The notes under the pieces were generated by a model. The model had not been told where the DNA came from, did no database searches, and was given only the letters and a program-made list of their open reading frames with translations. Positions 4,067-28,000 of a DNA stretch of 64,000 nucleotides are shown in pieces; positions within the stretch are counted from its first letter, which is position 1, and every line of letters begins with the position of its first letter. The translations under genes were made by a program, and so were the position numbers. The DNA is taken from positions 838,542 through 902,541 of the forward strand of contig CM082583.2 in the NCBI GenBank assembly GCA_040954595.2. Direction: 5' to 3'. This stretch comes from Balanoglossus misakiensis (Eukaryota; Animalia; Hemichordata).

Positions 4067-4098
4067 ATATATATATAGTAGAGTGTGTGTTTTGACAT

Positions 4099-4161: not shown

Positions 4162-4220
4162 GAATGATGGTGAAGGGTGTGGACAACAGGGAATTGGGTA
4201 GGGTGGATATGCAAATGGGC

Positions 4221-5059: not shown

Positions 5060-5126
5060 GCAACGAACTCCCAAATCGTATTACTACGCTCCTTTGTGTC
5101 GAGCACTCTTCGCAAATACCACTGTC

Positions 5127-7288: not shown

Positions 7289-7347
7289 GCCCATTTGCTT
7301 ATCCACCCTACCCAATTCCCTGTTGTCCACACCCTTCACCATCATTC

Positions 7348-7410
7348 AGGCATCAGTATCTGACGAGTGTAGGCCCCGCTTACACGAAACTGAACAGTAA
7401 TACACCGCCT
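7348..7410 (+). ncRNA. Minimal type I hammerhead ribozyme in the Penelope 3' region
   Basis: Core CTGACGA, stem II GTGTAGG/CTTACAC, GAAA, short stem III CTG-AA-CAG, GTA cleavage triplet, stem I GTAT/ATAC extended by AGGC/GCCT. Confidence 0.85.
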
Positions 7411-7512
7411 ATGTCAAAACAGCCTTAGTTCCCTTGCACACTCTACTATCAAGCTCTGGATTTACACCATCGAGCACTCTGCCAGCAGTACTTGCAACGA
7501 ACTCCCAAATCG

Positions 7513-7515
<3 letters not shown>

Positions 7516-7546
<31 letters not shown>
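7516..7546. repeat. (TA)n microsatellite at the Penelope 3' junction
   Basis: About 15 TA units; a shorter (TA)n lies at 4065-4077 on the other side. Confidence 0.95.
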
Positions 7547-7549
<3 letters not shown>

Positions 7550-7865
7550 ATACATGCCTAAATATAGGGATAAACTGTGTTAACGCCATCTTGAAAATTT
7601 GCAGTGCATTATCGGTCAATTGAGTCCCAGTTGGGGGGGGGGGGGAGTAGCGTCTACAACCTATCCAATTTTCCAGCAGTTTTGTCAGATTTTCTTCAAG
7701 TAACGTTAGTAGTAGTAGTTACATGAAGAAAATCTGACTAAACCGCTGGAAATGGATAGGTTGTAGTGGTACTCCCCCCAACCGGAACTCAATTGACCCA
7801 TAATGCACTGCAAATTTTCAAGATGGCATTAACAGTTTATCCCTACATTTAGGCATGTATGACAT
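7545..7865. mobile_element. Foldback/MITE-like palindromic element (~320 bp)
   Basis: ATGTCATACATGCCTAAATATAGGGATAAACTG... is mirrored by ...CAGTTTATCCCTACATTTAGGCATGTATGACAT. The inversion continues almost to the centre. Confidence 0.85.
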
Positions 7866-7888
7866 TGTGTTTTGATTTTTTTTTTTAG

Positions 7889-8762
7889 ATGGGTATGATA
7901 AACTATCTCCATATGGATTTGCCATTCATGGTTGCATCGATGGGTAAGTGCTATCAACTTATCATCTATACAAACCTTTCTGAGGAATGCTGGAGACCCA
8001 TTGTAACACCATTGGTTTTTTGAGAATCACAATATTGATGAAAGCTAAGATTAATGAAGCACATTTAGTAACAATTCTGTGGAAATATGTTTATGCAATG
8101 AAATTTACTTATTCCTTTTTTAATTTGAAAATTAATAATAACTTTGTTTTCTATAGATTTTCGCGAAGGGTGTTGTGGTTGAAAGTTGGTGCATCAAACA
8201 ATGATCCAAGCAAAGTTGCTTCCTATTTCATAGACACAGTTGAGAAGCTGAAAGGTAATAGACACATTCACTTAAGGTTGTTAAACATATCATTTTGACA
8301 AAATTTGTTTTATTGACATTTCTGAACTGGGTAAAGGCGATAAATTTAGCCAACCACTAATCAATGACAATTATCCATTGCATGCTCATATTAGTCTTGT
8401 ACCCAATATTTCCTGTGGCAACATTGTAATGATCTTCACATATCCAGGCTGTGTTGAAAAACATTGAAACTACGTGTAGGCAGTAAAGCATTTGGAATGA
8501 AAATCTTTCTTAAAAATTAAATCTAGTGTGTACAATTTTTTTTTTTTTTTTTTTTTTTGGGGGGGGGGTTAACATTTTAACTGTAAGAGCTGCCAATGTC
8601 AATCCTAATTTGTTTGCAGGTTGCCCCAGGATCTTGCGAGCAGATCATGGCACAGAAACAGGAGTGATAATGACTGCTCAAGCCATGTTGAGGACAGATG
8701 GTGATGATGCTTTTGCTGACAACAGCTTTTGGTATGGTCCTTCAACTGCTAACCAGGTCAGT

Positions 8763-8798
<36 letters not shown>

Positions 8799-11700
8799 TT
8801 TTATTTACCCATTAATTAAAGGGTACATATGATAGGTAAAATACAAATGGTGGGTAAATATGGAGTCAGGAAATAGCCACAGCTAGTCTAGCCTGTACTC
8901 CTACAATATAGCTTGCTTGGTTACAGAAAAAAAAAGATAATGTTGAGGGAACGCTTGAAGCGTGATTCAAGTACGATCTCACTACAACAGTGTAAAGTTA
9001 TCCATTGCAAATGGTAATGGAAAAAAGAAAGGAACAACAATCACAAACAAACAAACAAAACAGCATCATACTACATCAAGAAAATTACAAATTCATTTGT
9101 ACTGGTTTAAGAGGTGTTGTTTAAATGTCCTACGAAATTGGCATAAAGTATTTGAAGACTTAATTTGTGGAGGAATATCGTTCCAGATTTTTGCTCCAGT
9201 ATGTGATATCGAGAACTGGCCTGAGTTTGTTTTGGCATGGAACGGGCGTAGATAGTGATGTAACCAAATTCTGGTATTATGCTCATGACTTGTTGTGTCA
9301 AAATAATCTGAAAGTGAATGTGGAGATTTCTGGTGATATAAATAATAAATGAAGGAACCTAGTAAATAACTGTGAAGCTTGGTAATATCCAAAATATTCA
9401 GTTGATTAAAGAGAGGAGAAGAATGGTCCATGTGTGATTTGAAAAGCATTATACGTACAATTGTTTTTTGGGCAACTTGGATACAACGTAACTTTGTGGG
9501 GTAAGTATTGCCCCAAACCTCAAGACCATATGTAACATGGGGGAGTATGAAGGCGTTGTAATACAAAATTCTGATATGGAGTGGTAAAATATTTCTAATC
9601 TTGTATAAAATTCCACAGTGCTTCCTAATGAGATTATTTATTTTGTTAATTTGATGTGACCATGACAGATGCTTATCCAATAAAACCCCAACAAATGGTA
9701 TCACATCAACCTCTTTGATTTCTTCATTCTGGATTTGCAATGACCCAAGAACATTAAGTTTTTTCTGCCGACCCCTAAAAATAATAAAGTGAGTCTTGGC
9801 CCTATTAATTGTTAGTTTGTTGGCATTGCACCATTGCTGAACATCATTTAAATAAGAGGATATATGAGTCAAGTTAATACTATCTGCACCTGAGAAGGAA
9901 TGGAAGAGATTGGAGTCGTCAGCAAATAAACGGAAATCAAAAAATGTAGAAGAATTTGGAAGGTCATTGATATAAATAAGGAAAAGGGTTGGGCCCAAAA
10001 CTGATCCCTGTGGGACTCCATTGTGGATCAAGGACTTTTCTGAAACATGACTGGTTAATGTGACATACTGTGAGCGGTCTGTGAGGTAGCTGTTAAACCA
10101 ATGCTGGCAGGGGCCCCTAAACCCGTAATGTTCAAGCTTGGACAATAAAGTGGCATGGTGAATGGTATCGAAAGCTTTGCTGAAGTCAATAAACACCCCC
10201 AGTGTGGAATTCCCCTTATCAATTTCTTTTAACAAGTGGTTAACTAAGTTAATCAAAGTGTGCTTGGTGCTATGGTTCTTTCTAAAGCCATACTGGTGCT
10301 TATATAATATATTATATTTATCAAGGTAAGTAATCACTTGTTTGTTTACCACTTTTTCTATCACTTTACTGAACATTGATAAAATGGCGATGGGTCTGTA
10401 GTTCCCAGCAATGTTCTGTTCTCCTTTCTTGAAGATAGGTTTAACCTTAGCGACTTTTAAGGAATTAGGGAAGACACCGGTACAGAAAGACATATTTATG
10501 ATGTGGGTCAAAGGTTGAGCAATAACATCAGCTGCATCAATTAGGAGTCTTGGAGGAATATTATCCCACCCACTGGCCTTTTTACTGTCAAGATGCACCA
10601 AAATCTCTTTTATCTCAGCAACCGTAACAGGATGGAGAAAAAAAGAGTTTGGCATAGGATCATTCATATAATTTTTAAAATCTTTTGTGGTTTTTGGAAT
10701 GTGTTTTGCCAGATTTTGACCCACATGTACAAAGAAGTCATTAAAACACTTAGCCATATCAGCTGGCTTATCTACCAACCTTTCAATCCCATTTACATTG
10801 ACCTTTAACTGATCTGGTGCTTTATCTAAAGTAGTGTTTTTACCAAGCAACTCATTTACAACATTCCACACTTTACCATTGTTGTTTACAGTGAATAAAT
10901 TAGCATAATACACCCTTTTGGCTTTTCTTAAAACACTTGTAAGAATATTTCTGTAGGTTGTGTAGCGAGCAACAGCACTTGGTTCATGTTGTGTGGTGAC
11001 AACTTTAGCATATAGTTTGCGTTTGGTGCGAATTGACTTCTTAATAGCTTTGGTAATCCAGGGATTTTTGTTACACTTGGCCTTAATAGTTTTAACCTCA
11101 AGTGGGGCATGATGGTCACACACCTGGCTGAACAAATTGCTGAAGGTGTCAAAAGCAGTGTTTACACAGCTATTGTTATGCATAACAACGTTCCAGTTAA
11201 CATTAATTAAATCAGAAATAAAACGAGCAGAGTTATAGCGCCTGAAATTCCTTGTACAAACTGACCGTACAAATGGCGTGTGGACATTGAAGTTGTTGAA
11301 AATAGAGAAAATAGGTAAGTGATCTGAAATATCAGCAATAATTGTACCAGCATCAATGTGACAAGAGCTAATATTGGAATAAATATGATCAATGGTCGAC
11401 TTGGAAGTACTTGTAATACGAGTTGGGGAGGAGATTAACTGTTCTAGATGAAGACATTGCATCCTTGGTATAAAATCCCGAGCACTTGAATCTGGACTTG
11501 ACACATCAATATTAAAGTCACCCATAAGAATACAATGTTTTTTATCCAGTTTCAAAGAACAAAGAACATTAAAAAGACTGTCTTCAAACTCTGTGACACT
11601 AGTTCCTGGTTTGCGATATAACACACCGACAACTATGCGATTCTTTAACCCGCATATTTCAAACCATAGTGATTCAGAATGAACCACATTAAAGTTTAAC

Positions 11701-14700
11701 AGTTTGTATTTAAGAGAACAATGAATATATGCCCCTACCCCGCCACCCCGACCGATGTTTCTGCTATTTAACTCAAAAGAGTAATTTGGCAAATTAAAAA
11801 AAGTTGGATTATTGATTTGCCAGGTTTCTGAAACACCAATAATGTGAAAAGGACTGGTGATACATTCATTATACAGGAGACGTACATCGTCTATACTATT
11901 ACAGAGAGATCTTGCATTAATATGAGATACTGAGAAAGAATGGCTGGATCTAGAGCTAAATTTATCATTAAATGTTGACGGTTCTAGTATATGATTTGTA
12001 ACTGTGAAAATGTCATCATCTATGTCATTTACTGAGTTTGGCATGAAGCAATATATGGGAAACCAAGAAAATGTCTACAAGATGGTTTATACAATCTTGG
12101 CAAGGTCCAGCTCATTCCTTATCACTAGTACAGGTGACTGCTCACTTTTCTTCACAAGAACTTCACCGTTCCGCGTCCACGCATACTTATAGCGTGCTGA
12201 TTAGCGCTTCACGTTCGTCATCTTAAAAAGTTTGCGTGCTTTTGGAGTTAGATTTTCATTTACGTAGATTTTGTTCCGATTGGCATATCCAATATCTCCA
12301 GTTGTAATGGTCGCTAGCTTCTTTTTGTTCCGGTGGATATAGTCGCGTTTCTTCCTGCTTAAGAATCGCACAATGATTGGTCTTGGGAAAGTAGGTGCAG
12401 CATTGTCACCTGTATGCTTTTGACCTAATCTGTGGGTAATCACAATGTCGTGGTCACTGATACCTGGATCGATCTTTTTAGCACTCTTGTTACGATTGCA
12501 TCTGTATTTTCTCCATCATCTGCACTTTCATGAATTCCATGAAGTTCAATGTTTTCACGTCTATTGTATGATTCATACTTTCCATAGATTTCTCGAGCTC
12601 TGTGATGCGAGTGAAAAGCTGTTCATTCGTTTCTTTGACTTCTTTATTTTCAAGCTCCAAAGTAGAAACTCGTCCACGTACTTCCTCTACAAGTCCGTTG
12701 AAGAACTCCAGTGACGAATTTATTGTGCTTTGGCTTTCTTTGAGCTCAGCAATACTGATCAATAGTGCCGGTATGTGATTTACATGTGAACAGATTTCAG
12801 CAAGCCGGTTTTCTATTGATTGTGGTGTGCCAGCTGGAGGTGTTGATTGGCAAGAGTCTGATGATCCAGATGGTGTTTGGTCTTTTCTTCTCGGCATCGT
12901 GAATGAGCACAGGTGTTCGATTACACAACGTGGGTTTTAAACAAAGGAGCAGAATTCCAGTACTATTTTGCATGCATAATGAGATCGACTGGAACTAACG
13001 GCAGGATTCTGTGTGCTGGCTTCGACTTGATAGATAAAAATCAAAACTCACTTTTGACAAAAAGTTACAGCAATCTTCCGCAAAAATCCGTTGCCAGCTA
13101 ATAGTCCACGCCTTCAAAAATCGACACATTGACCGGTGATGAAAACAAGTTCCAACTAAGGAGTGATTTTTGGCTCGTACCAAGAGACGATGTTGCTGAA
13201 CTTGTCGACCATGCGCAGCGCCCTCTATCCACATATGACAAATGACATCACAATTTTTCTTAGGAATACCTACGCTGTACCGTGTCATGAGATAAAAAGA
13301 CTGTTAATACTACCCATTTTTCCACTACCTTGTTAAGATGACTATATGCTTGAGGAGACAATCCTCAAACCTCATAGACTCCCCATCTTCCCTACTTCAG
13401 TCACCGATTCCATTGCTGCTGCATGCCTGAGCAAATTTTGTTCAAATTTGGTGCAGTTTTTTGTTTCACAATATAATCCAAAAAAGACACTTTTGGTATC
13501 GTGTTTCACATTTGTTTGTTCAGAGTGGTGACAGTAATTGTGTCAGACCATTGTTTTCATTGTGATCTCTTCTTACAGCGTATTGAACGATGGTGGGGTG
13601 TGTTAAGAAGTAAAAGTGCAGATTGGTGGATTGACCATTTTAAGGTAAAGTATCATTTGGCTTGTACAAATGTGTTCTGCAAAACAAAATCAACTCAAAC
13701 ACAAAGATGGTTGTATAAGTGACAAAATTTGTATTCTCATAGAATGTGCCACAGCCCAAGATGCAATGTCATTAGTGGATGCAGTTGTGTGTAGGAATGA
13801 GAAAAATAACCAGTATAGCTCAAGTCAGCTCATATCATGATGTTGAATTGTCCTGCAGAGTTTTTATACATGAGGACTAGGCTTTCCAAACATTTTTTTT
13901 CTTGGCCATGGCCTTGCAGGCAGTTTATACACAAGTACAAGACCACATTCACTGACACATTTTACTGTAGCATTACAGGAAATTCACCACTATCAATTTT
14001 TTATCCCCTAGGATTTGGTATCAATGGGTCATTTGCAGTTAGGTGACCCGGTCAACATGTGAGTTGATACACTTTATGTTTTGTTTCAAGTAATGAAAGA
14101 AATTCCATTATTCAATCTGTCAATGTTTGCACAGAGCAGAGAAGAAACAGACACAGACAGGATGGTAGAGACATAGACAGGAGATCAAATATTGCAGTTC
14201 GTTTGAAATCCGTAGATCTGCTGGAAATCATATTTTTAACTGGATGAATTTCCATAAACTTGTAACATTATGCTATTTGTTAAGTATGATAAAATGCACA
14301 TATTATTCCCAAGCATCTTGAAATCAATTTGCATTTTTTCTTTCAGAATGAGTATGCAGTTTTGTTATTTTTCTGTCATGCAAAGGGAACTGGATGAGGT
14401 AGTTGAGAGGTGGAACCACCACAGAATAAGGCGACAAAATAAAGGAGATTCTGTATCAGGCATTCCAGAAATTCTCTATACCTGTCCTGAGTTACTAGGT
14501 ACTTTTTTATTGCAACAAAATAAAGAAACCAACAAAGATTCATTAAAATTGCAGAAATGCTACCTAATCTGGACCCTGTGACTGAATGTAGATCACAAGT
14601 CATGTGGGTATTTCACTCATTAGGTCAACATAAGGCTTATCCATGAAGTAAATGACATGCAGTGTTTAAAGCATAAATCATGAACATTGGAAAGTTTCCT

Positions 14701-15383
14701 CAACAAAAATCTCAAGATTACATAACATCTGCAGAGAATGATAGAAAAATAACATTTCAATCACTTCATTGCTTAAGGTAAATAAAATAAAATAACTTAA
14801 TATACATCTGGCACCAAGAACAATAGATACTCCAATATAAACAAAAAAGAAAGATGGCTGCTCAGTGTGTACTGTGTTTCAGCTGATCGGTTATGGTTGA
14901 TCGTACCAGCGTTTTGAAAGCCAAATAATATGCAACACAAGAACTAACTGAGATGTAAGATGTACAATAATAATTTTATTATGAAAATACCACAAAGTAT
15001 ATATTTGGACATTAGCATAGTGCATCGCCCTCCGCTACGCATCAGGCGATACGTGGCGCTAATGTCCTTGAGCATACTTTGCAGTATTTTCGTAATACCC
15101 TCATAGTATTTAACCCATACATAAATTCTTATTTGAACAAACATATTTTGTTATTTCAGACCGCCCTAATTGTCGGAACTACATACATTCAGTCAACGCT
15201 GGCTCTCAAACTTTCTTGCTATGCAAGTCACAGTGTAACTTTAATAATGGTTGAAATGAAGATTTCGCAGTTGTGGCACGGAACATATGCCAAATGAATG
15301 GATGGAATCATGAACCCACTACAGCATTTGCAGCAAAAGAACTCTACTTGCACTTGACACCTTGCCTTGAAGAACTTTTCTAA
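7889..15383 (+). CDS. Multi-exon DDE 'integrase core' transposase of IS3/IS481 type (IS3EU-like); 5' exons not in window; in-frame TGA in last exon
   Basis: Exons with AG/GT borders and consistent phases: 7889-7943 (DGYDKLSPYGFAIHGCIDG), 8157-8254 (FSRRVLWLKVGASNNDP..), 8620-8756 (GCPRILRADHGTE..YGPSTANQ), 13579-13644 (RIERWWGVLR..), 14012-14058, 14347-14498 (QRELDEVVERWNHHRIR..GIPEILYTCPE), 15160-15383 (..AKELYLHL..). D, D and E catalytic motifs are present. Confidence 0.85.
9093..12044 (-). CDS. LINE ORF2: APE endonuclease + reverse transcriptase (983 aa, open)
   Basis: HINARSL, GVSETW, GGGVGAY, MGDFN, IDHI, SDHLP (endonuclease); NYRPIAIL, QYGFR, IDFSKAFDT, GVPQGSVLGP, LFADD (RT). Confidence 0.93.
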   Translation of the reverse strand: MPNSVNDIDDDIFTVTNHILEPSTFNDKFSSRSSHSFSVSHINARSLCNSIDDVRLLYNECITSPFHIIGVSETWQINNPTFFNLPNYSFELNSRNIGRGGGVGAYIHCSLKYKLLNFNVVHSESLWFEICGLKNRIVVGVLYRKPGTSVTEFEDSLFNVLCSLKLDKKHCILMGDFNIDVSSPDSSARDFIPRMQCLHLEQLISSPTRITSTSKSTIDHIYSNISSCHIDAGTIIADISDHLPIFSIFNNFNVHTPFVRSVCTRNFRRYNSARFISDLINVNWNVVMHNNSCVNTAFDTFSNLFSQVCDHHAPLEVKTIKAKCNKNPWITKAIKKSIRTKRKLYAKVVTTQHEPSAVARYTTYRNILTSVLRKAKRVYYANLFTVNNNGKVWNVVNELLGKNTTLDKAPDQLKVNVNGIERLVDKPADMAKCFNDFFVHVGQNLAKHIPKTTKDFKNYMNDPMPNSFFLHPVTVAEIKEILVHLDSKKASGWDNIPPRLLIDAADVIAQPLTHIINMSFCTGVFPNSLKVAKVKPIFKKGEQNIAGNYRPIAILSMFSKVIEKVVNKQVITYLDKYNILYKHQYGFRKNHSTKHTLINLVNHLLKEIDKGNSTLGVFIDFSKAFDTIHHATLLSKLEHYGFRGPCQHWFNSYLTDRSQYVTLTSHVSEKSLIHNGVPQGSVLGPTLFLIYINDLPNSSTFFDFRLFADDSNLFHSFSGADSINLTHISSYLNDVQQWCNANKLTINRAKTHFIIFRGRQKKLNVLGSLQIQNEEIKEVDVIPFVGVLLDKHLSWSHQINKINNLIRKHCGILYKIRNILPLHIRILYYNAFILPHVTYGLEVWGNTYPTKLRCIQVAQKTIVRIMLFKSHMDHSSPLFNQLNILDITKLHSYLLGSFIYYLYHQKSPHSLSDYFDTTSHEHNTRIWLHHYLRPFHAKTNSGQFSISHTGAKIWNDIPPQIKSSNTLCQFRRTFKQHLLNQYK
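12087..12897 (-). pseudogene. LINE ORF1 (coiled coil, RRM, C-terminal domain), disrupted
   Basis: Coiled coil in ORF 12490..12897; HRLG..PRPIIVRF..IYVNENLT in ORF 12201..12443; YKYAWTRNGEVLVKK after a premature TAA at 12201-12203; frameshift near 12565. Confidence 0.8.
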
Positions 15384-15424
15384 ACTACACAACTAAAGAG
15401 AACAATACAACAGCTAATACTTTA

Positions 15425-15621
15425 GAGGCCGTTCAGTTTTCATGGCTTGGGGCAAGTTTGTGTCATCTGTTTTCAAAAACAGGCAGACCCCCCCCCCCAT
15501 TCCCTTTACACGGGACCAAAAAATGATGACCCCCCTTTTGAATTTCCAAATTTAAGTGACACCCCCTTGATTTTGCCGACTCCCCCTACCTACCTCCCGC
15601 CGTAAAAACTGAATGGTCCCC
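15425..15621. mobile_element. MITE (~200 bp) between the two convergent stop codons
   Basis: Imperfect TIRs GAGGCCGTTCAGTTTTT / AAAAACTGAATGGTCCCC, with TA on both sides. Confidence 0.75.
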
Positions 15622-17099
15622 TAGTAAAAAAAAATGTTCACAAGTACAGTTCAAAACAGCCCACACAGAAGAACATCATCATAGTTTGTTAGGGTGTCAT
15701 CCAGGTCACCACTAATCTGTTGAACAAATAAAAAAGTGATTTCATGCATTAAAAAACATTGTTTATCATATTCATGTGTATGTACTGACATTTTGTGATG
15801 CGAAATAAAACTTGGTAATCAGAATAGCTGTACTATGTGAACATTTGGATTCTGTTTCACGAGACTGAAGAATGTTGTGCATTTTTGGACAACTCGATTT
15901 TCAGTATAAAACTGCTAAAAAAGACAGTTGATCAATCTCTCAAAATTGGCAAACACCGAAATATGCAAATATCATCAAAAAAATTTAAAATTATTAAATT
16001 ACCTCTTTCACTAGCATCATTTCTGGTAGATATTCTACGAAAAGGAAGTCAGCCTCAGCTGTGGCATGGTATTCATGCTGACACTGAAAATCAACACAGT
16101 TGGGAGGATCGAAACATTGCAGAAAAAATCTGCAAGGAAGATCTTCTGAATCAACTGTACCGCAAATCCAATCAAAGACATCCTGCAAAGCAAATAGATT
16201 CTTTTATGTTTACAATTATAATGCTAGAATATGATGATTAATCCAAACCTTGGTTTCTTTATTTTGGTATGACTGCAGTTACACTCAGAAATGCCTTACA
16301 TTGTAAGGCTGCAACGGACTGTATTTGAACAGTGAACATGAAACACACAATTTACACTTGATGGCCCATATCTTGACTTACTTTGAGTGTATCTAGGTCT
16401 CTGAATGGCCTTTCCAGGACCTCATCGTTCACCATGATGCAGATTTGTCTTTTCCTTTCGTTAATCAAGGGCAATCTTATATTTTCGGCTCTGGCCTGTG
16501 CTGCCTGTAAAGAAATAAACACATTGAGTGTCATAACCTGAGCAGACAATTCACTGACTAACCGGTTCCTAGGGAAGAGATTGCCTTGCCTAACGTGAAA
16601 TAGGTATGTGGATGAGAAAGTACAAAACAAACATTTAGTAGAATGCACCTCTGAGCTTTAAATTTTTAGACATTGGACCTAAAAATTAACAATTTATCAA
16701 AAACTATCCTATAAATGTAAAAATGAAGAATTTATCAAAAACTACAAAGACAATCAACACGTTTCAATCCAGTATTAACATCATTGCCCAAACTGTCACT
16801 TTGGTGTAGGAGTATAACCAATCCAGTCAAATGTATGACTCAGAATCAAAATTCGACTAAACTTACATCTTTCCTCTGCAATTTCCTTTGAGCTTGTTTC
16901 TCTCTTTCCTGTAACGTTAATATTGATACCATTTAATACCTTAGACTAATCAATATCCCCCAGGGGCGGCCTAAACATCACATGTGAAAGCCCCATTTGT
17001 TTAAGAGTCATTCCATAATCTTTCAACACCTTTGCAAATACCAGTCAGAGTTATTTTCCATCATATCTGCTCTGACTGTCCCCATATTTCCTCATGCAG

Positions 17100-17261
17100 C
17101 AGTAAAACCTGTCTAATCTTGAAACCTATCTATATTGAACACATGTTCCTGTCCCTTTGACATGGAACCACATGTTAAAAGAACCCCTATAAACCAGACA
17201 CCTTTGCAAATGGAATAATTTCTTCAGTCACTTTGGTGTTCAGTTTCGACAGGTTTTACTG
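17100..17261. mobile_element. Small Tc1/pogo-type MITE
   Basis: TIR CAGTAAAACCTGTC / GACAGGTTTTACTG, followed by TA on the right. Confidence 0.7.
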
Positions 17262-17371
17262 TAGCAGAATAGACATTTTGCCAATAAATACAATTGGTAT
17301 TGACTAGAAGTGCCTGATCATTCGAATATTTATTCGGAGAACCTGCTCCATCATTTATAGTAGTTAATTAA

Positions 17372-18104
17372 GGTGGCATTGCATGAAAAGTTGTGATTTT
17401 TGCCAAATTTTACTTTTTTACATAAATCGGTAGGCCTAACACTGACCCACAACCTGACTAATACGTCTTGGCGGAAATGGTGCATAATCACCCCAAAATA
17501 GCACTTTTCTGAATGAGTTCACAGCTTAAAAAATAGGTGTCAACAATGCAAATAGCCGTTTTTCTCAGTTTGCATTTTCGCTGCTCTTGACAACTTCGGA
17601 CTAAAATAGCTTCGCCCTGCGTTGGCCGAATTTGCTCAAATTTTGACAGGGAATTGTGTATGACCCATCCAACAAAACGCTAGTTTTGTTTGTCGATAAA
17701 GTGTCCCTGGCGGGAATAAACTCTGATTCAATACAACTCACCGTGAATTTGATCAAATTTTCTGAAAATCTAACTTTTAAACGCTGTTACTCCTCAATGG
17801 AAGCAGATAACGCAAAACAAAATTAGCGTTTTTTTGCACGTGTACTCTAGTTTTGAATGACATATTAAGATGCATGATGCATGGTCAACTGTTTTACCTA
17901 TTTTAAATTTCATGACATAATATCAAAAAATGGTTTTTTTCACCCAAAATCGCCACCATTTCCGGGGATCAATAATATTTGCAACTCAAACAAAAGTTCA
18001 AAATCTCAGCTTCCAGAATATATATGGTTTATGGGGGTTTTAACTTTTTCTTTGATGAGAAATAGGCCTCTGAAAAAGTCTCGACGGTTTCATGCAGTGC
18101 CACC
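17372..18104. mobile_element. Non-autonomous TTAA-targeting DNA transposon (Kolobok-like)
   Basis: TTAA-GGTGGCATTGCATGAAA ... TTTCATGCAGTGCCACC-TTAA: TIRs with GG..CC ends and a TTAA duplication. Confidence 0.85.
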
Positions 18105-18916
18105 TTAATCATGTCTAACCTGTTCTGAATTCAATGCCTGTTCAGCAGTACATTCTTTCATGGATTCCTCACATGAAGCTGCCACCTCCTCCACCACTGT
18201 TATGTCAACAGAATTTTCAACCGCAATCACTTCTACATCTTCATTGACACCATCACAGGACACAGGATCACAGGACACAGGATCACAGGACACTAACTTT
18301 TCATTGTCAGTACCCTATAACAGAAAATAAAAAAATGAAATATCTATCTGGCTGTAATTATGATTTTGTAAAATGTTGCTGTTTTGTGCTTAAACTATAT
18401 TTTTTGTTCCCCATAAATTTTGTTGAAATGTCAAGATTTCAATTCATCGCCAGTAGATACTGTATGCCACACTGTATTACAAACCATGACATCACTGGCA
18501 GACTAAATTTCACATGTTAAAATATTCATGCCATTATACCTTGACCATTTCTTGTTCTTGTTCAGGTTCCTCTTGCTGCTCGAACTCTTTGTCTTGCAGT
18601 TGCAGCTTCTTTTGAACAAAGGATGCTTTCAAAGAATGTTTTGCTGTGGAATACAAAAAAAAAATACACAATACAGAAATGCCCTGAAAATTGATAAGCA
18701 CATCAGCATAGCTCACATATGCATAAAGAAACTGTTAATTATTTACTACTGAGTTTTAGTCCATACTAAAATCATTTCTCAATGTTGACTATACAAAGAC
18801 CAGATGTTCTCGTAGGAGGATCCTTAAACCTTTGGCAATGAAACTACAAACCATAGTTCTAACCTGGGACTACACATAACAAAAGGACAGATTTACTCTG
18901 GAAAATAGGTCATTAA

Positions 18917-20242
18917 AGGGACAATGTCTCTCTCTTGCTGCCCCTTTTCCATTAATTATGTTTGATACAAGACACCGTTTATGTTATTATATGTGTGGAT
19001 ATATAGTGAATCAACGTTCAACCACACACACCTTCCATTCGGCTTGAAGACATGAGTGAAAAAAAATCGCCAAAATGAATAATATTCCTCTACCATTTTT
19101 TCATTTGGGGCGAGTTTTTATTCTCATATCATCATACAAGTGAAATGGAAGTTGTGTGTGGTCGAATGTTGATTCGCTGTATGTCTACATGTAAAAACAT
19201 AGCAACATAGCAATAAGCACATCTGCTCTGGATGCCAAGATATGGAAAAGTAGGTCAAAGGTCACCTGAGGTCATGCAAAATTTGGGCATAAAATTTTGA
19301 CCCTATACTGGTCCATGTTCAACAAAAACCAAACCTATAGCCCTATTGGTTAGCCTGGAATTAGGTATGCACATAATTAATGAGATATGCAAGTGTCACA
19401 GGTGACCCCCAATTTTGGCTTTTCAATTTTAGTCCCAACCCTCCAAACGCGAAGTCTCTACCTGCTCTGGATGCCAAGATATGATAAAGTAGGTCAAAGG
19501 TCACCTGAGGTCATGCAAAATTTGGGCAAGAAATTTTGACCTTATACTGGTCCATGTTCAATAAAAACCAAACCTATAGCCTTATTGGTTAGCCTGGAAT
19601 TAGGTATGCACATAATTAATGTGTTAAGCAGGTGTTACAGGTGAGCCCAAAAATTTGCCTTTTATTTTGGCCCCATTGTGCTCACTGACCAATAGACAGT
19701 CACTGTACAGGACTATTGCACAGACCAGAACTCCACAATAAGACGTGGACATAGCTTAACCATAGAGGTATAAGTAAAGGTATAAATTTAATAAAAAGAC
19801 TAAAAAATTCATAAAAAATAAAACATCCATGATATTAACTTAACACTTACAGGTCGATGTGAGGTTGACATAAGGTACATGCATACCAATTTTTAAAGCA
19901 ATCTGAGCAGTAGTTGTTGACTTTCAGAGTTTTGATAAATTTCACATTTTACTGGCTAATTTGCATATTTTTGGGCCTGGCAACTTCGTTTGGACAAACT
20001 CCCATCTACAGCCCTGCCTGCATCTGCACACCAAATATCAAGGTGATACGCGCAGCGGTTTTCAAGTTTTTGATGTGGACGGACATACAGACATACATAC
20101 ATACATCCATACAGACACAACCCATCCCATAAGGTCCCATGGTATATAGGCCTATACCAATGGGACCTAATAACACAAATAATATCTTGTATCAAACATA
20201 ATTAATGTAAAAAAGCAGCAAGAAGCAGAGAGAGACTTTGCC
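18917..20242. mobile_element. Old foldback element (TTAA-flanked) split by a nested insertion
   Basis: ATTAATTATGTTTGATACAAGA (18951) pairs with TCTTGTATCAAACATAATTAAT (to 20206). Internal palindrome at 18990-19195. TTAA at 18913 and 20243. Confidence 0.65.
19195..20170. mobile_element. Helentron-associated non-autonomous element (HINE/DINE-1/pearl-like organisation)
   Basis: Two ~239-bp core repeats (19223, 19462) containing GGTCAAAGGTCA, an (ACAT/ACAG)n microsatellite at ~20083-20115, and a terminal hairpin AGGTCCCA..TGGGACCT at 20132-20168. Confidence 0.6.
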
Positions 20243-22691
20243 TTAAGGGGTCACTGATAGACAAGGCTGAAACTTTTTTAGTGCAACCTTTGAGTCAGAT
20301 AATCAAGTTAATCAAGTATAATGCACCTGTGCACTTACACAATCAAAGTGGTGGAACTTGGAGGTAGCATTGTTGGAATAAAAGTGCCCATACTTGGGCC
20401 ATTGTCACATGACCAGACAGGTACCACTATCCTGCAATTTTGCAAATACATGTCTAAAATGGCATTTGTTGAATTTGTTATGTTCATGCCAGGCTTTGCA
20501 TAATTGCATGATAGCATGAATATACCAACCATAAAGTCCACCATGCCAATGATACCCACTGGATAATGGGGTCTGCCCAGTCATGTGACAATGACAGAAA
20601 TGGCGCTTTTCTTCCAACAAAACAAGTTCTGCCACTTCTATTTTTGTCTGTTTTTGTTTAAAAAGCAGCAAGTGAATAATAAAAAACTACCATGACTTTT
20701 TAACCTGGATAATCCAACACAAAACGGGCACAAAGAAAAAAAACAACCTTTCAATTTATCCAGTTAAATACTTGACACAACTTGTGACAATGTAAATAGA
20801 CATGATTTACTCACTCTGCCCAACTGCAAACATGAAGACTGGCAACTTGTCTGTCTTCGCCTTCATACTTTTGTATTTTGCCTTCAGGTCTTTTAATTGG
20901 AAATTCATTGGGTCCTTCATCCTTATGAACACTCCTATGTCATTCATCTCATAAGGTACAAAATCCACGTCGATGAAGTGTGCCGATACACTCTGGGCCC
21001 AGTGCATGGCATTTGAGCCACTGTCCACGGTAATGGCCACCTGACTTTTTCTGCCGACAGCTGATGGTAGTACTGCCCCCATTTTCTTTAGAACTCCTTT
21101 ACTGTCTTTTGTCAGTGGTGTAACATTTAACACCTGAATGAAAATGTTACAAAATAGGGTAAACATCAAAATTTTAATAAATGTATGTAAAATGGCATGA
21201 ATATAAACTTAAATTTTCATAAAATCAGGAAATAACTAACAAGGAAAAGACTTGTACATTGCATGGATATGAAGAAAACATGTGTTATAACTCCTAGCAA
21301 TTACGTATAATGCTTAAAGGCTGAACTGTACATAACCTTGGTCTATACTTTCCTGTGTATGTATACTCTACACTTCTATTCTATTCCCTAAAGCATGATG
21401 AAATTACCAGTGTCTAGAATGTTTACCTTGTCTGTAAATTAGATGATGAGAAATTAAATACATGTACTGGGCAATTCATCATGCTATTGGGTGTAGAATG
21501 GAAAGAAAACAAAAGTGTAGACAAAATACAAAAAGGTTAGTGGTGGGGGGGGGGACTAAAACATGCCATTGGCAGCTCACGAGTCAGTCAATGGCCAGTC
21601 AGTGTTTGCCTGTTGATCTGTGTGTGAGCATGGACACTTTCATCTGTATTTCCAAACACATAAACACCTAGCAGTGAGACAGGAACATCCACTGAAAAGG
21701 AAATCCTGTCACCCTCAAATTGGTTTCCTTTCCATGTGTTTGGATTTTTTTCATTGATGAAACGCCGCGCCACAATGGCATTATTTGGAACCACATTTCT
21801 TGTGATTACATCCACATAACCAGGAACAGGAAAATTGCATCCAGGATGTCGAACTGCTTTTAATATCTGGAAGATGGGGAAGAAATGGCTCAAAACAAAA
21901 GGGGGCATCCATATCATTGCCATTGACACCCTGAAGTTTCCTTTCCACCCATAAAAACAATGCATTCAAAAGTGTGTCTTCCTTTACCGAAAGCGTCTGA
22001 CGCTGAATTATTTTTACAACTATGCTTTCAGGAAGTTGAAGAAAATCTTCCAAAACTTGCTCAGAATTAAACAGTTTAACACCATTCTGATCAATTATTG
22101 ACAGACAGTGTTCAAAAGTACTATCTAACTGGTATTTCTGACAAAATACAAGGTCTCTAATACTGCGGGAAGTTACAATGTTGGAAATTAAAAATGATTC
22201 ACATTTCTCTTTTAAAGAATTTATCATGTAAAAGTTACATATCTCCACATAATCTTCAACATTTTCACTTGTAATATTTAACTTTTCAAAATAAAAATCA
22301 TCAATGACATTTTGCATGAGTAAGGGATCAAAGTCAGAACAATCAATGGTTTTGTCGTTGGCCCATTCCGAATGCAAACGGGCGGCAAACACATCCGAAA
22401 AAAGACACAACACCAATGAATGGGCCCTTCTCGTCTGACCATCTCTGAAGCGAAGGATGACATCATTTGCTACAGTGTCTTGGTTTCTATATGAAGTTTG
22501 CAATTTTTGGGCCAGTAACATGATGTCTGCAAGTGTAACAAAGGTATAACACCAGTATTGTATCAGTTTAGTTGTATATCGACACAAACTGAATAGCTCA
22601 GGGCCTAACTGTATCCTAATTATATTGGAAAATATCTGAATTGTTAGATTGTTCATTTTATCAGTTTATTACCATTTTGGTAGGAAATTCT

Positions 22692-24753
22692 AATTGTTCT
22701 CAAAAATTGCACAGACAAGTATTACATATACAACAGGCTTATTGCATCAAAACTAGAAAAACAAATAAACATGGAAACAAATTGGGTTATATTTGTCCCA
22801 GACAGAAATCTATGAACGGTTATGAAATCTGGCGACTTCTTGATGAAGTTTCTTTTAATTTCTGTAGTAAACTTAACTGTCAAAAGTTGTTTATTTTATC
22901 ATACCTTATTCAAATGTGAAATATCATAGTCGAAATTGGGGCATTATAGTGAAAAAATGTAAAATTACAGTTTATAAATTGGTTGGTAAATCGGAATAAA
23001 TCATGTAAATTTACATGAATGTCATTAGAAAGAAAAGTCAAAGTTCAAATAAAGAGTTCAATCAAATTCATGGAGATTCCATGACAGTGTATATCATCTG
23101 TTACATTTCTTTTTGTTCTTTTCTAAATTATGTTGAACTCTCTTTTTTTCAGCTTTTCAACATATTCCAGTGCATTATTATGACACAGTTGCGTTTTGAC
23201 TGTTGCTGAAAAAGGTCTGCAGACTTGTTCCTAAATTTACCACTTTAGGTGCAAACATTATACATGAAAACAAGAACACCACATCTAATTGAAATGCAGG
23301 TGTCCATAGAAACCAACCAATAATGTAATCAACCCATGTTTTTTCAGCTGTGTCACTATCAGTTTCACTATCTGTAGGCTCATAAAACAAACAGCTATGG
23401 ACTCCCAACAGGAACCCAACTTGGGTTAACATTTGAACAGTAAAAAATGACCTATACCTCCCTGAACTGACTATTTTCTGTTCCCAAACTAAATTCCTGA
23501 ACAAAATTTCTTGTCCGTTTACAAATTGCAGCCACTTTTCCAAGGAGTACCAGTTAGATTTCCACACAGCCAGCCAGCGAACTCTGACCCTCACCCAAAA
23601 TGGACATTCAGTTAACTTCGTGCGAGCGCCATATTAGCATATCAATAGCAATCATTTCAAGTTGAGAACTTTCTCTGTGGATGATCGGCTGAAATACGTA
23701 AACTAACCAGAGAATTTGTTCACGAAAAGAGTTTAGGAAACAGTAAATTAAAAAAGATAACACAGACGAGACAGTGGATTCGCAGGAAACTAGCGGAAAA
23801 GACTAGCAAACGAACATAACTGTTCTTACCTTCACTACAACTTCGCTCCACAAGTTCTGTTTGCAGTGGTGAATTGTTCTCAAAAATTGCACAGACAAGT
23901 ATTACATATACAACAGGCTTATCGCATCAATACTAGAAAAACAAAAAACATGGAAACAAATTGGGTTATATTTGTCCCAGACAGGAATCTATGAACGGTT
24001 ATGAAATCTGGCGACTTCTATGACTTGATGAAGTTTCTTTTAATTTAATTTCTGTAGTAAACTTAACTGTCAAAATTTGTTTATTTTATCATACCTTATT
24101 CAAGTGTGAAATATCATAGTCGAAATTGGGGCAAACATTATACATGAAAACAAGAACATCACATCTAATTGAAATGCAGGTGTCCATAGAAACCAACCAA
24201 TAATGTGATCAACCCATGTTTTTTTCAGCTGTGTCACTATCAGTTTCACTATCTGTAGGCTCATAAAACAAACAGCTATGGACTCCCAACAGGAACCCAA
24301 CTTGGGTTAACATTTGAACAGTAAAAAATGACCTATACCTCCCTGAACTGACTATTTTCTGTTCCCAAAGTAAATTCCTGAACAAAATTTTTTGTCGGTT
24401 TACAAATTGCAGCCACTTTTCCAAGGAGTACCAGTAAGATTTCCACACAGCCAGCCAGCGAACTCTGACCCTCACCCAAAATGGACATTCAGTTAACTTC
24501 GTGCGAGCGCCATATTAGCATATCAATAGCAATCATTTCAAGTTGAGAACTTTCTCTGTGGATGATCGGCTGAAATACGTAAACTAACCAGAGAATTTTT
24601 CACGGAAAGAGTTTAGGAAACAGTTATTTAAAAAAAGATAACACAGACGAGACAGTGAATTCGCAGGAAACTAGCGGAAAAGACTTGACAAACGAACATA
24701 ACTTTTCTTACCTTCACTACAACTTCGCTCCACAAGTTCTGTTTGCAGTGGTG
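22692..24753. repeat. Tandem duplication (22692-23871 and 23872-24753) of the 5' region of the BTB gene
   Basis: Both copies start AATTGTTCTCAAAAATTGC and end GCAGTGGTG. Copy 1 has ~300 bp extra (~22943-23250). Each copy has a minus-strand AAG|GTAAG donor (23829, 24711). Confidence 0.9.
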
Positions 24754-24776
24754 ACTGCGCATGCTCAGAAAATCAG

Positions 24777-25082
24777 AGAAAACGCCGATGCGAGAAAACT
24801 CTTTAGCTGAAACGCCAATGCGCATGTGTAGAATGCCGGCGCGACAAAACTCTCCAGAAACGCCGATGCGAGAAAACTCTTTAGCTGAAACGCCAATGCG
24901 CATGTGTAGAATGCCGGTGCGACAAAACTCTCCAGAAACGCCGATGCGAGAAAACTCTTTAGCTGAAACGCCAATGCGCATGTGTAGAATGCCGGTGCGA
25001 GAAAACTCTCCAGAAACGCCGATGCGAGAAAACTCTAGCTGAAACGCCAATGCGACAACTCTGTAGAAACGCCGATGCGAGA
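24777..25082. repeat. 78-bp tandem repeats built from GAAACGCC(G/A)ATGCG submotifs; putative subterminal repeats
   Basis: About 3.5 near-perfect units, decaying into shorter motif copies towards 25201. Confidence 0.9.
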
Positions 25083-28000
25083 ACTCATCAAATCACCGGT
25101 TGTGATTTTGTCGGCGCCGGTAGAATGAGTAAAGGTGTCGGCAAAAATTTGGTTGTTACCGGCATTTTAGATTACGGCGTCGGCACCCAATGTGCGTCAT
25201 ATTTTCAGCATATGCGTTCCTATCATTTGTCTATGGACTTTACCCATGTATTGAGAGAAGTTGTCGGGGGTCCCCAACGGCTTTCCATAGTCTGTCATGG
25301 TGTGCCGGGGTTTTAGTCGAGCCAGGCCGTAGGAGATCTGACTTGATCATCGTGGTCAATGTACGCGTGTTTCCGCTCTAAAGTGCCGGGGCTTCAGCTA
25401 AACCAGGCCGTAGGAAATCCGACGTAATCATCGTTGATAACTTACGCCAGTCTGTGTCATATAGAGCCGGTGCACCAGCCGAGTCACGCCGTAGGAAATC
25501 TGACTTGATCAACGTGGTCAATGTACGCCTGTTTCTGCTCTAGAGCGCCGGGGCTTCAGCTGAGCCAGGCCGTAGGAAACCCGACGTGATTACCGTTGTT
25601 AACTTACGCCAGTCTGTGTCCTATATATAGTGCCGGGGCATCAGCCGTGTCAGGCCGAAGGAAATGTGAGTAGATCAACGTGGTCTCTGTACGCGTGTTT
25701 CTGCTCTAGAGTGCCGGGGCTTTATCCAAGCCATGCCGTAGAAAATCTGACTTGATCACCGTTGCTAACGTACGATAGTGTCTGTCATATTGTGACGGAG
25801 ATTTAGCCGAGCCAGGCCGTAGAAAAATCGACTTGTTCAACGTTACCAGTGTGCAACTGTTTCTGCTCTAAAGTCTCAGGGTTTTAGCCGACTTATGCTG
25901 TAGGAAATCTGAGTTGATGAACGGGAATTCAATGTTAGAAAACCCGTGTGGAAAGTATCTCTACCCGTTTGAAACTAAGAAAAGAATTAATTCTTATTTA
26001 TTTTGTAAAAAAGACAATTTTTCGAAAAAAATTCGAAAATGGTAATTTTGTCTTGGGTGATTCAAATTATACCGCCTTTTCTGGAATTTGCAGCACTTTT
26101 TACAAGAGAACGACACTTCATGCTCCATAATATTTCCGAAAATGAAGAAAAGAGTTAATTTTTTATGATTTTTTTAAAAATTTACCATTTTTGTCAAAAT
26201 ATGGCCAAAATGGCTATTATTTCTTGAATTCCGTCAATATCTCTGCATTTTTGGAGTGGTCGAAAGTTTTAACATACAATCAACATGTCATATATGATCA
26301 GGGCACCAAATTCGAAGATAAAAGGTTTTTTAATTTTTTTTTTCTAAAAATGACATTTTCAAGGAAAATTTTGTAAAACGCAATTTTGTCTTCAGTGAGC
26401 CAAATTAGACGGTCTTTTGTGGAATTTGTATCGATATATACATACGAAGAGCATTCTATACTCCATCAGATTTCCGAAAATGTAGAAAACAGGTATTTTT
26501 TGTAATTTTCAAAAAATTACCATTTTGACCAAATTGTGGCTAAAATTGTTATTTTCGTGTTGAATGCCGCCAGTGTCACTGCTTTTAAAAGTCATAAAAA
26601 CTTTTAACATACAAGCAATTGTTTATATATGATCAGGTCACCGAATTAAAAAAATAAAGAATGTTTTGCCTAAAAATGACCTTTTTGGTGCAAAAACGCA
26701 ATTTTGTATTAAATCAGCTCATTCAGAGTGCATTTTTTATAATCAGCACCATTTTTACATAAAATGGAAATTTCATACATCATCAGATATCCAAATATGA
26801 AAAAATGATTTAGATTTTAGATGATTGTCCAAAATTAGCTGATATCTAATAAATGTAGTATTGAACCGTTCTGTCCCCCCCCCCCCCTACATTATATGCG
26901 GTACGCCGATGTAAGCTTACCCGGCAGTACTGCAGGCCGTGCCCCCAACTAACGTCGGTGTTTGAAACGCCCTGGTTAAATTCGGGCTTTCTCTATAAAT
27001 TGACAGGCAATAATGCAGTCCTACCCGAACAAATGTCGAGTGTTGACCCGCTGTGACTTTCCCTCTTCGGTTTGCCCGACTTAGCTAACGTCTTTGTACT
27101 AGAGTGTCGGGTCTTTTGCAGAGCCAGGCCGAAGGAAATCCGACTTGATCACCGTTGCTAACGAACGCTAGTGTCTGTCATGGTGTGCCGGGGTTTTAGT
27201 CGAGCCAGGCCGTAGGAAATCTGACTTGATCAACGTGGTCAATGTACGCCTGTTTCTGCTCTAGAGTGCCGGGGCTTCAGCTGAGCCAGGCCGTAGGAAA
27301 CCCGACGTGATTACCGTTGTTAACTTACGCCAGTCTGTGTCATATATATAGTGCCGGGGCATCAGCCGTGCCAGGCCGAAGGAAATGTGAGTAGATTAAC
27401 ATGGTCTCTGTACGCGTGTTTCTGCTCTAGAGTGCCAGGGTTTTAGCCAAGCCAAGCCGTAGGAAATCTGACTTGATCAACGTTGCTAACGAACGCTAGT
27501 GTCTGTCATAGTGTGCCGGGGTTTTAGTCGAGCCAAGCCGTAGGAGATCAGACTTGATCAACGTGGTCTCTGTACGCGTGTTTCTGCTCTAGAGTGCCGG
27601 GGCTTCAGCTGAGCCAGGCCGTAGGAAACCCGACGTGATTACCGTTGTTAACTTACGCCAGTCTGTGTCCTATATATAGTGCCGGGGCATCAGCCGTGCC
27701 AGGCCGAAGGAAATGTGAGTAGATCAACGTGGTCTCTGTACGCGTGTTTCTGCTCTAGAGTGCCAGGGCTTTAGCCAAGCCATGCCGTAGGAAATCTCAC
27801 TTGATCACCGTTGCTAACGTACGCTAGTGTCTGTCATATTGTGACGGAGATTTAGCCGAGCCAGGCCGTAGAAAAATCGACTTGTTCAACGTTTCCAGTG
27901 TGCAACTGTTTCTGCTCTAGAGTGTCAGGGTTTTAGCCGACTTATGCTGTAGGAAATCTGAGTTGATGAACGGGAAGTCAATGTTAGGAAACCCGTGTGG

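What the first reader, a model, noticed from the sequence alone, without database searches (positions are those of the whole stretch)
7889..25289. Candidate giant IS3EU-like transposon pairing an intron-rich DDE transposase with a ubiquitin-pathway cargo gene
Seen: a 7-exon DDE transposase (+) and a ~9-exon gene (-) end tail-to-tail. The stops are at 15383 and 15651, only ~70 bp apart once the 200-bp MITE between them is removed. Beyond the second gene's 5' end lie short-motif repeats and a sharp ...CCATA junction with satellite DNA. Established, from recall: IS3EU elements have an IS3-like DDE transposase, a second ORF of poorly known function, TAY..RTA termini and 6-bp TSDs. Inference: the whole block is one element, >17 kb here and >25 kb if it extends past position 1, and its second gene is a BTB + UBX-like protein. 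That would be an unusual cargo able to recruit host proteolysis.
Basis: partly seen in the sequence, partly recalled or inferred. Interest (0 to 1): 0.82.

Follow-up and report, generated by a model that had tools for sequence, protein, structure and literature searches.

The report
Three-gene transposon carrying ubiquitin-system cargo
This is a damaged copy of a large, likely recently multiplied jumping DNA element of a known but little-studied type (IS3EU) that carries, besides its cutting enzyme, a conserved partner gene and what is likely a separate third gene of a ubiquitin-ligase adaptor family, predicted to let the element tamper with host protein turnover.

Summary
The element is real. 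Seven transposase exons splice in frame (77% identical to a Ptychodera flava protein, IS3EU motifs). Seven opposite-strand exons give a 342-aa partner, 37% identical to a P. flava protein two accession numbers from that transposase, so the pair recurs in another species. Public contigs place the end at 25289 (CCATA), imply a 6-bp duplication (GTCTGT) in the satellite, and cover transposase, partner and BTB gene at one depth, about 10-20 times that of rare variants.

Corrections: this copy is defective (stop at 15252, 74-bp deletion, about 1.7 kb lost at 21561-21625, 5' exons not in the window). A BTB+UBX fusion is not supported. The P. flava partner lacks BTB, and the BTB-BACK-PHR frame probably stops in the lost stretch, so three genes are likelier. 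UBX identity is weak. Copy number may partly reflect passive satellite duplication.

The scan found this before on other DNA: an oyster IS3EU with ubiquitin-like and BTB-BACK-PHR genes (e1-8622937, unchecked). I found it in none of seven paper searches. Cul3 recruitment is inferred, not tested.

The parts
7889..7943 (+). Transposase exon, first in the window; holds the last 2 nt of the first catalytic Asp codon; upstream exons absent from the window
8157..8254 (+). Transposase exon
8620..8756 (+). Transposase exon with the second catalytic Asp (RADHG motif)
   Evidence: 84% to P0001 and P0002
8766..13235 (-). LINE (endonuclease + RT, open 993-codon frame 9096-12074; ORF1 in two frames) nested in a transposase intron; ends estimated by eye; its 5' end lies inside a main-depth contig, so it is likely carried by most copies
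13579..13644 (+). Transposase exon with the catalytic Glu (RIERWW motif)
14012..14058 (+). Transposase exon
14347..14498 (+). Transposase exon; weak PF24764 rva_4 match alone (E 0.0011)
15160..15383 (+). Last transposase exon; TGA at 15252-15254 in this copy, while the main contigs of both runs read C at 15254
15425..15621 (.). 197-bp MITE-like insert between the two stops; present in a main-depth contig (X2, 14903-15921, no gaps)
15651..15716 (-). Partner gene, last exon
16003..16182 (-). Partner exon: second half of the predicted beta-grasp (UBX-like) domain, with a Cys/His loop shared with P0004
16382..16504 (-). Partner exon: first half of the predicted beta-grasp domain
16867..16908 (-). 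Partner exon (basic stretch)
17368..18104 (.). 737-bp MITE flanked by TTAA; absent from the main contigs, so an insertion in this copy or a few copies
18120..18314 (-). Partner exon (acidic linker, poorly conserved)
18540..18643 (-). Partner exon
20815..21133 (-). Partner exon: conserved N-terminal domain of no known family (56% to P0004); its upstream coding exon is missing from this copy
21561..21626 (.). Scar of a ~1.7-kb deletion; this 66-bp piece is inverted relative to the main contig and holds a TGA (+ strand 21614-21616) in the frame that best fits the PHR domain
21625..22521 (-). Intronless BTB-BACK-PHR reading frame; 74 bp deleted at 21874/21875 in this copy (frameshift); 3' part lost
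22692..24754 (-). Duplicated 5' region (23248-23872 vs 24128-24754 at 97%; 22692-22943 vs 23872-24133 at 94%), each large copy with a likely non-coding exon (donor at 24711 and its twin); inferred, no RNA
24780..25083 (.). 78-bp subterminal repeats; one 14-mer occurs 5 times in 24701-25289 and 0 times in 7866-24700; likely transposase-binding sites
24953..25289 (.). Right terminal repeat ending in CCATA; likely 337-493 bp long, judged from contigs that leave the stretch at 24953 (X1) and 24797 (X2)
25290..25295 (+). GTCTGT, the inferred 6-bp target site duplication in the 81-bp satellite subunit

Best explanation
This is a defective copy of a likely multi-copy IS3EU/GingerRoot cut-and-paste transposon inserted in a satellite, and it likely carries three separate genes: a DDE transposase, a convergent partner gene also found beside the transposase in P. 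flava, and an intronless BTB-BACK-PHR gene predicted to act as a Cullin-3 adaptor or decoy that weakens host control. Shown: the exon structures, the homologies, the right end, and the defects of this copy relative to the main contigs. Inferred: (a) the transposase binds the 78-bp subterminal repeats and cuts the target with a 6-bp stagger; (b) the partner (basic N-terminal helix in P. flava, conserved domain, acidic linker, predicted beta-grasp domain) is an old accessory protein that travels with the transposase; (c) the BTB gene was captured upstream of the partner, under the promoter at the right end, and would bind Cul3 or host BTB proteins to remove or block a silencing factor. I put step (c)'s function at about 0.35; the three-gene element at 0.7.
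For: Transposase: 76.7% over 258 aa to P0001 and 66.3% to P0003; P0001 matches PF24764 at E 9e-33; motifs match IS3EU-1_CGi, IS3EU-1_DR and IS3EU-4_CGi by eye in the PMC10045372 supplement. Partner: 37% over its full length to P0004, 52% in the N domain and 49% in the C domain. P0001 and P0004 are XP_070548835.1 and XP_070548833.1, each on one contig of 203,092 nt. Ends: CCATA fits TAYGG..CCRTA with 6-bp TSDs (PMC12730594). A loose end behind 25289 is the reverse complement of the satellite ending in GTCTGT, and empty satellite sites have the same letters directly before GTCTGT. One unit: X1 contigs on the transposase, partner and BTB lie at depth 683-737, against 37-60 for most rare-variant contigs of that run; an X2 contig spans 14903-15921 across both stops. 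Separate BTB gene: P0004 has no BTB; the main contig holds about 1.7 kb more between BTB and exon 21133; the PHR-like frame meets TGA there; PHR is the carboxy-terminal module of BBP proteins (PMC1257465 passages).
Against: The left end was never seen on the same molecule as the right end. Contig depth is not a copy number (tool caveat), both covering runs are one sample, and X2 depth varies widely (388-4208 among its main contigs). Adjacency in P. flava rests on accession numbers and an equal contig length, not on DNA, and XP_070548834.1 is unseen. The stop in the PHR frame depends on an unseen stretch whose length (about 155 nt) I estimated from contig overlaps. Nothing tests Cul3 binding, and whether P. 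flava's element has a BTB gene is unknown. The beta-grasp call is weak (pLDDT 52, best Z 4.2).
Confidence: 0.7

Rival explanations
1. The BTB-BACK-PHR exon is spliced to the seven downstream exons (always or as an alternative form), giving the BTB + UBX-like fusion that the first reader proposed.
For: Same strand, adjacent, one apparent upstream promoter and non-coding exon. Exon 21133 needs an upstream coding exon that is not in the window. The P. flava gene model is automatic and could be truncated.
Against: P0004 starts with its own 47-aa basic N-terminus (15 K/R) and no BTB. About 1.7 kb is unseen, enough for a separate first exon. The PHR-like frame has a stop in the 66-bp piece.
Confidence: 0.15
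2. Most copies did not transpose on their own: one insertion was multiplied passively when the satellite array duplicated, so the high depth says little about activity or about selection on the cargo.
For: In the same array a 5-kb LINE lies in a 7,109-bp unit duplicated at 99.9%. The main contigs share the nested LINE end, the spacer MITE and the duplicated 5' region. X2 lists only one loose contig behind 25289, and it is satellite at the same site.
Against: X1 shows two other junction types at 25289: a second loose contig unlike the satellite (two contigs, agreement 0.7) and a joint from 25289 to 25128 inside a terminal repeat at depth 38.5. The main contigs keep both broken frames of this copy open. 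A Glandiceps relative has at least 4 near-identical transposase records.
Confidence: 0.4
3. The element prefers this satellite (and its own ends) as a target, so many independent insertions share the GTCTGT site.
For: Both junction types seen in X2 use the same 6-mer. The site occurs 39 times in the window with at most 1 mismatch. One joint points into a terminal repeat.
Against: One junction in X1 is neither satellite nor terminal repeat. Short contigs cannot separate independent insertions from duplicated ones. No target preference is given in the IS3EU passages that I read.
Confidence: 0.25
4. The BTB-BACK-PHR gene is a neutral hitchhiker, a captured retrocopy or fragment as described for GingerRoot, with no role in transposition.
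For: It is intronless, strongly diverged (best solved relatives E 4e-10 to 1e-7), and its PHR may be cut short. GingerRoot elements often carry gene fragments (PMC6839031 abstract).
Against: In the main contigs the frame appears open for about 390 codons despite high divergence (partly inferred). An unchecked scan note reports the same gene type in an oyster IS3EU, which would be unlikely for a neutral passenger (a lead only).
Confidence: 0.35
5. The genes are unrelated neighbours: a transposase fragment beside single-copy host genes.
For: The left end is not in the window; no genome assembly was available.
Against: Equal contig depth over all three genes, a bridging contig, an IS3EU end beyond the BTB gene, and the same pair in P. 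flava.
Confidence: 0.04

Closest known systems
IS3EU/GingerRoot superfamily (Repbase; PMC10045372 passages and supplement passages; PMC6839031 abstract and sections 15, 21)
   Same: DDE core motifs, TA..TA ends, 6-bp TSD, presence in marine animals; acorn worm is among the first hosts named (PMC11934779 passages).
   Different: At least 17.4 kb here (about 18.5 kb in the main form, without the left part) against 3.9-12.9 kb for Selaginella GingerRoots; terminal repeat likely 337-493 bp against 100-150 bp; the passages read describe no ubiquitin-system cargo.
Fungal three-gene IS3EU: transposase + TET/JBP + alpha-kinase (PMC12730594 passages and section 4.1)
   Same: TAYGG..CCRTA ends, 6-bp TSD, an opposite-strand standing partner plus an extra captured gene thought to counter silencing.
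   Different: Partner and cargo are unrelated proteins, and the BTB gene lies distal to the partner, not between partner and transposase.
BTB-BACK-PHR (BBP) proteins BTBD1/2/3/6 (PMC1257465 passages; 10.1101/575910 search listing only)
   Same: Domain order BTB-BACK-PHR; such proteins are expected Cul3 adaptors.
   Different: Multi-copy inside a transposon, intronless, highly diverged, PHR probably shortened; Cul3 binding untested.
UBX-domain p97 adaptors (Pfam PF00789)
   Same: Sub-threshold match to the first half of the profile (19 bits against 21); a low-confidence model resembles beta-grasp folds.
   Different: The recalled p97-binding signature (Arg in strand 1 and the FPR loop) is not seen; a Cys/His loop stands in its place in both species.
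Earlier scan notes e1-8622937 (oyster) and e1-9540004 (unchecked AI notes)
   Same: Large animal IS3EU elements with ubiquitin-like partner genes; the oyster one also with a separate BTB-BACK-PHR gene.
   Different: Other genomes. No shared short words with this BTB frame or with P0004, so common ancestry of the cargo is not shown.

Membership tests
IS3EU/GingerRoot | IS3EU-type DDE transposase core | tested here: met
   77% to P0001, which matches PF24764 at E 9e-33; motifs match IS3EU rows of the PMC10045372 supplement by eye; the first Asp codon is split by an intron and only 2 nt are in the window
IS3EU/GingerRoot | TA..TA (TAYGG..CCRTA) termini | tested here: met
   right end CCATA at 25289; the left end is inferred from a contig junction and is not in the window
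IS3EU/GingerRoot | 6-bp target site duplication | tested here: met
   GTCTGT follows the end in the window and, in reverse complement, in a contig junction; empty sites have it once. The two sides were not seen on one molecule
IS3EU/GingerRoot | Terminal inverted repeats longer than 30 bp at both ends | tested here: inconclusive
   no partner arm in the window; contigs leaving at 24953 and 24797 into sequence absent from the window may be the other end or a deletion derivative
IS3EU/GingerRoot | Second gene in opposite orientation (stated for fungal families in PMC12730594; general rule recalled) | tested here: met
   convergent 342-aa partner, also beside the transposase in P. flava by accession
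IS3EU/GingerRoot | Tree placement with Repbase IS3EU proteins | not testable with these tools
   Repbase is not held; the supplement rows were compared by eye only
BTB-BACK-PHR (BBP) | BTB and BACK domains | tested here: met
   PF00651 E 3e-16 and PF07707 E 2e-6, both above cut-off
BTB-BACK-PHR (BBP) | Complete C-terminal PHR domain | tested here: inconclusive
   PF08005 positions 2-51 of 151, 20.9 bits against cut-off 23.6; the rest falls in the deleted stretch
BTB-BACK-PHR (BBP) | Binds Cullin-3 | not testable with these tools
UBX domain | Profile match and beta-grasp fold | tested here: inconclusive
   PF00789 E 0.0016, below cut-off, in 1 of 3 alignment members; model pLDDT 52; no Foldseek hit at E<=0.001; best Z 4.2
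UBX domain | p97-binding signature (Arg in strand 1, FPR loop; motif recalled) | tested here: not met
   not seen by eye in the window exons or in P0004
   the junction is deleted in this copy; the orthologue lacks BTB and the likeliest frame has a stop

The most novel reading that the evidence does not exclude
Animal IS3EU transposons from deuterostomes to molluscs carry a standing anti-silencing kit, a ubiquitin-like-fold partner plus a captured BTB-BACK-PHR Cullin-3 adaptor, with which a DNA transposon redirects host ubiquitin ligases as viruses do; this family also homes to a satellite and to its own ends.
Probability: 0.25. Interest if true: 0.8.

Novelty: new variant of a known kind. Interest (0 to 1): 0.5.

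Why it matters
IS3EU elements are widespread, but their structure and function are called largely unexplored (PMC11934779 passage). This locus defines a partner protein of no known family that is inherited with the transposase in at least two species, and a third gene from a Cul3-adaptor family. A young family with apparently intact copies makes it testable whether a DNA transposon recruits host ubiquitin ligases against silencing, a parallel to the TET cargo of fungal IS3EUs. It also warns annotators that such multi-copy 'BTB' and 'uncharacterized' genes are transposon parts. If the BTB gene is a neutral passenger, this is an ordinary large IS3EU.

Tried and rejected
No whole genome was held, so flanks and the left end were read from public contigs only. 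No RNA holder was listed; this says nothing about expression.

Word-based protein searches gave 0 of 60 candidates for exon 21133 and 0 of 684 for the BTB exon among proteins of 430-2000 aa. The first was a false negative, since one search found P0004. The second left out the ~390-aa length of a stand-alone BBP, so neither is evidence. Of the 4 hits I kept P0004, noted P0007 (106 aa, 32%, unnamed) as a possible distant relative, and dropped P0005 and P0006 as repeat-protein noise.

ESM Atlas: no hit at 0.9 or more for two exons. PDB sequence searches: none for P0004, and 2 chance-level rows for alignment A1. The full-length P0004 model was unusable (pLDDT 38). Foldseek gave nothing at E<=0.001; no UBX chain is among the 50 VIA-align rows shown, which excludes nothing.

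Metagenome scan: 1 of 35 stretches, an unrelated intron-poor IS3EU. Viral contigs: 0 of 4 stretches for the BTB frame. Rfam: 0 matches. The end at 25201 was rejected.

Seven paper searches listed no paper on BTB or UBX cargo in IS3EU. I read passages of only seven papers; Repbase entries and the Kojima 2019 review are not held and may describe it. No complex prediction was run.
Full report
Setting. The window is eukaryotic repeat-rich DNA. It holds a 274/178-bp array (1-4066), a Penelope-like element (about 4088-7510), a MITE (7545-7865), the block in question, and a satellite of about 2-kb units with 81-bp subunits from 25290 on. No genome was held. The nearest protein relatives are from acorn worms, so the host is likely a related marine deuterostome (inference).

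Transposase. Seven exons with AG acceptors and GT-AG introns splice into 259 codons with one internal TGA at 15252-15254. A search with one exon returned 2 of 3 candidates, both 84% identical: P0001 (P. flava) and P0002 (Glandiceps talaboti). The spliced product is 76.7% identical to P0001 over 258 aa and 66.3% to P0003, without gaps, which confirms the exon model. The first ~139 residues of P0003 have no match in the window. P0001 matches PF24764 rva_4, and the motifs match IS3EU rows in the supplement of PMC10045372 by eye.

Partner gene. Seven minus-strand exons from 21133 to 15651 give an open 342-aa frame. A full-library HMMER search with the 107-aa exon gave 4 hits at E<=0.001, one strong: P0004 (E 8e-27). 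P0004 aligns along the whole product (37%; 52% N domain, 25% linker, 49% C domain). It is XP_070548833.1, and the transposase P0001 is XP_070548835.1; each lies on one contig of 203,092 nt. I infer that the pair is adjacent in P. flava; the DNA was not seen. P0004 has a 47-aa basic N-terminus and no BTB. The C domain scores below the UBX cut-off. Its model is low-confidence (pLDDT 52); 10 of the top 15 VIA-align rows are beta-grasp domains (fold labels recalled, except one title), all at Z<=4.2. The recalled p97-binding motif is not seen. 'UBX-like fold' is plausible; 'p97 adaptor' is not shown.

BTB gene. The frame from 22521 matches BTB and BACK above cut-off and, after a frameshift, the first third of PHR. 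It is therefore of the BTB-BACK-PHR type, expected Cul3 adaptors with a C-terminal PHR (PMC1257465 passages).

Contig evidence. Five runs were listed; two, from one sample, hold 83-85% of the sampled words. Contigs were laid on 13000-25600 (4 runs) and 21450-25310 (2 runs). In X1 the long contigs on all three genes have depth 683-737. Most rare-variant contigs in that run lie at 37-60; in X2 the figures are mostly 2200-4200 against about 120-400. Depth is not a copy number, but the ratio suggests about 10-20 near-identical copies. An X2 contig crosses both stops. Relative to the main contigs this copy has a stop at 15254, a 737-bp TTAA-flanked MITE, a 74-bp deletion at 21874/21875 that explains the frameshift, and a loss of about 1.7 kb at 21561-21625 with a 66-bp piece left inverted. 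So the window holds a degenerate member of a family whose main form seems intact at these places.

Fusion or third gene. The deletion removes exactly the junction in question. The contig letters next to 21625 continue the PHR frame by eye. If the unseen stretch up to the inverted piece is about 155 nt (my estimate from contig overlaps; it fits the PHR spacing as recalled), the frame reaches the TGA at 21614-21616. That gives a stand-alone protein of about 390 aa with a shortened PHR, and leaves about 1.5 kb for the partner's own first exon. With the BTB-less orthologue this favours three genes (0.7) over a fusion (0.15). I noted this reading before seeing the scan note on an oyster element of the same layout, which is an unchecked lead.

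Ends. The right end reads CCATA then GTCTGT, matching TAYGG..CCRTA and 6-bp TSDs (PMC12730594) and TA..TA (PMC10045372). A loose end behind 25289 in X2 is the reverse complement of the satellite up to and including GTCTGT; the X1 consensus of two contigs matches it at 21 of 27 letters. Empty sites carry GTCTGT once. This is either the left junction or an opposite-orientation insertion at the same site; both imply a 6-bp stagger. Contigs that leave the stretch at 24953 (X1) and 24797 (X2) into sequence absent from the window suggest a terminal repeat of 337-493 bp. X1 adds a non-satellite flank and a joint from 25289 to 25128, about 165 bp inside a terminal repeat, at single-copy depth; I read it as a self-insertion, as in scan note e1-8630879.

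Against independent transposition of most copies: a 7,109-bp satellite unit bearing a LINE is duplicated at 99.9% in this window, X2 lists only the satellite junction, and copies share old nested inserts. Passive amplification and target preference cannot be separated here.

Size. 7889-25289 is 17,401 bp; the main form would be about 18.5 kb plus the unseen left part, including a LINE of about 4.5 kb. This exceeds the 3.9-12.9 kb of GingerRoots. Whether bases 1-7865 belong to the element was not tested.

Mechanism. Cut-and-paste transposition by an IS3EU transposase follows from family knowledge and the end geometry. The partner's role is inferred only from co-inheritance. The BTB gene would most likely bind Cul3 or host BTB proteins. 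A shortened PHR would suit a decoy, or substrate capture through BTB heterodimers, a mode named for Btbd6 in 10.1101/575910 (search listing only). No binding was tested. A neutral passenger remains possible (0.35).

Verdict. An IS3EU/GingerRoot member with an undescribed partner family and a likely third BTB-BACK-PHR gene. Seven paper searches did not list it; PMC12062965 and 10.1101/2021.09.26.461848 (passages) do not cover it in the passages read; Repbase could not be checked. The scan has noted a similar layout in an oyster. New variant of a known kind; interest 0.5.

Noticed in passing
window 31411-36439 and 38520-43548: A 5-kb poly(A)-tailed LINE with a 13-bp TSD (L1/Tx1 type by recall) sits in the 81-bp satellite subunit, a few bases from the spot used by the IS3EU. 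It lies in a 7,109-bp unit duplicated at 99.9%, and ORF2 is split in both copies. It may be a satellite-targeting retrotransposon.
   Followed up: partly
window 4088-7510: Penelope-like element (RT and GIY-YIG-like frames read by eye; no Pfam hit) with a 972-bp inverted terminal copy, 99.7% identical, inserted in a TA run; one frameshift near 6400.
   Followed up: partly
window 1-4066: Near-perfect array of a 274-bp unit interspersed with a 178-bp unit that has imperfect inverted ends. It stops about 25 bp upstream of the first transposase exon once the Penelope and the MITE are removed; whether it lies in the element's intron is unknown.
   Followed up: no
window 25124-25128 (contig joint): One X1 contig joins an element end to a point about 165 bp inside a terminal repeat: a likely self-insertion.
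   Followed up: partly
window 15245 (- strand): The only AATAAA/ATTAAA found downstream of the partner's stop (searched to 15101) lies inside the transposase's last exon, and none lies on + in 15384-15700, so the two 3' ends may overlap and form double-stranded RNA.
   Followed up: no
L001 56-1117 and 1183-2571: Metagenome contig with an intron-poor IS3EU transposase and a divergently placed frame that looks like an alpha-kinase by eye (no Pfam support), as in fungal IS3EUs.
   Followed up: partly
window 18916-20244: Cluster of very high-copy MITE-like and hairpin repeats in a partner intron, including a 239-bp tandem pair; several are shared with a second organism's runs.
   Followed up: no
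P0007: Unnamed 106-aa protein, 32% identical to the partner's N-terminal domain: a possible distant member of the partner family.
   Followed up: no
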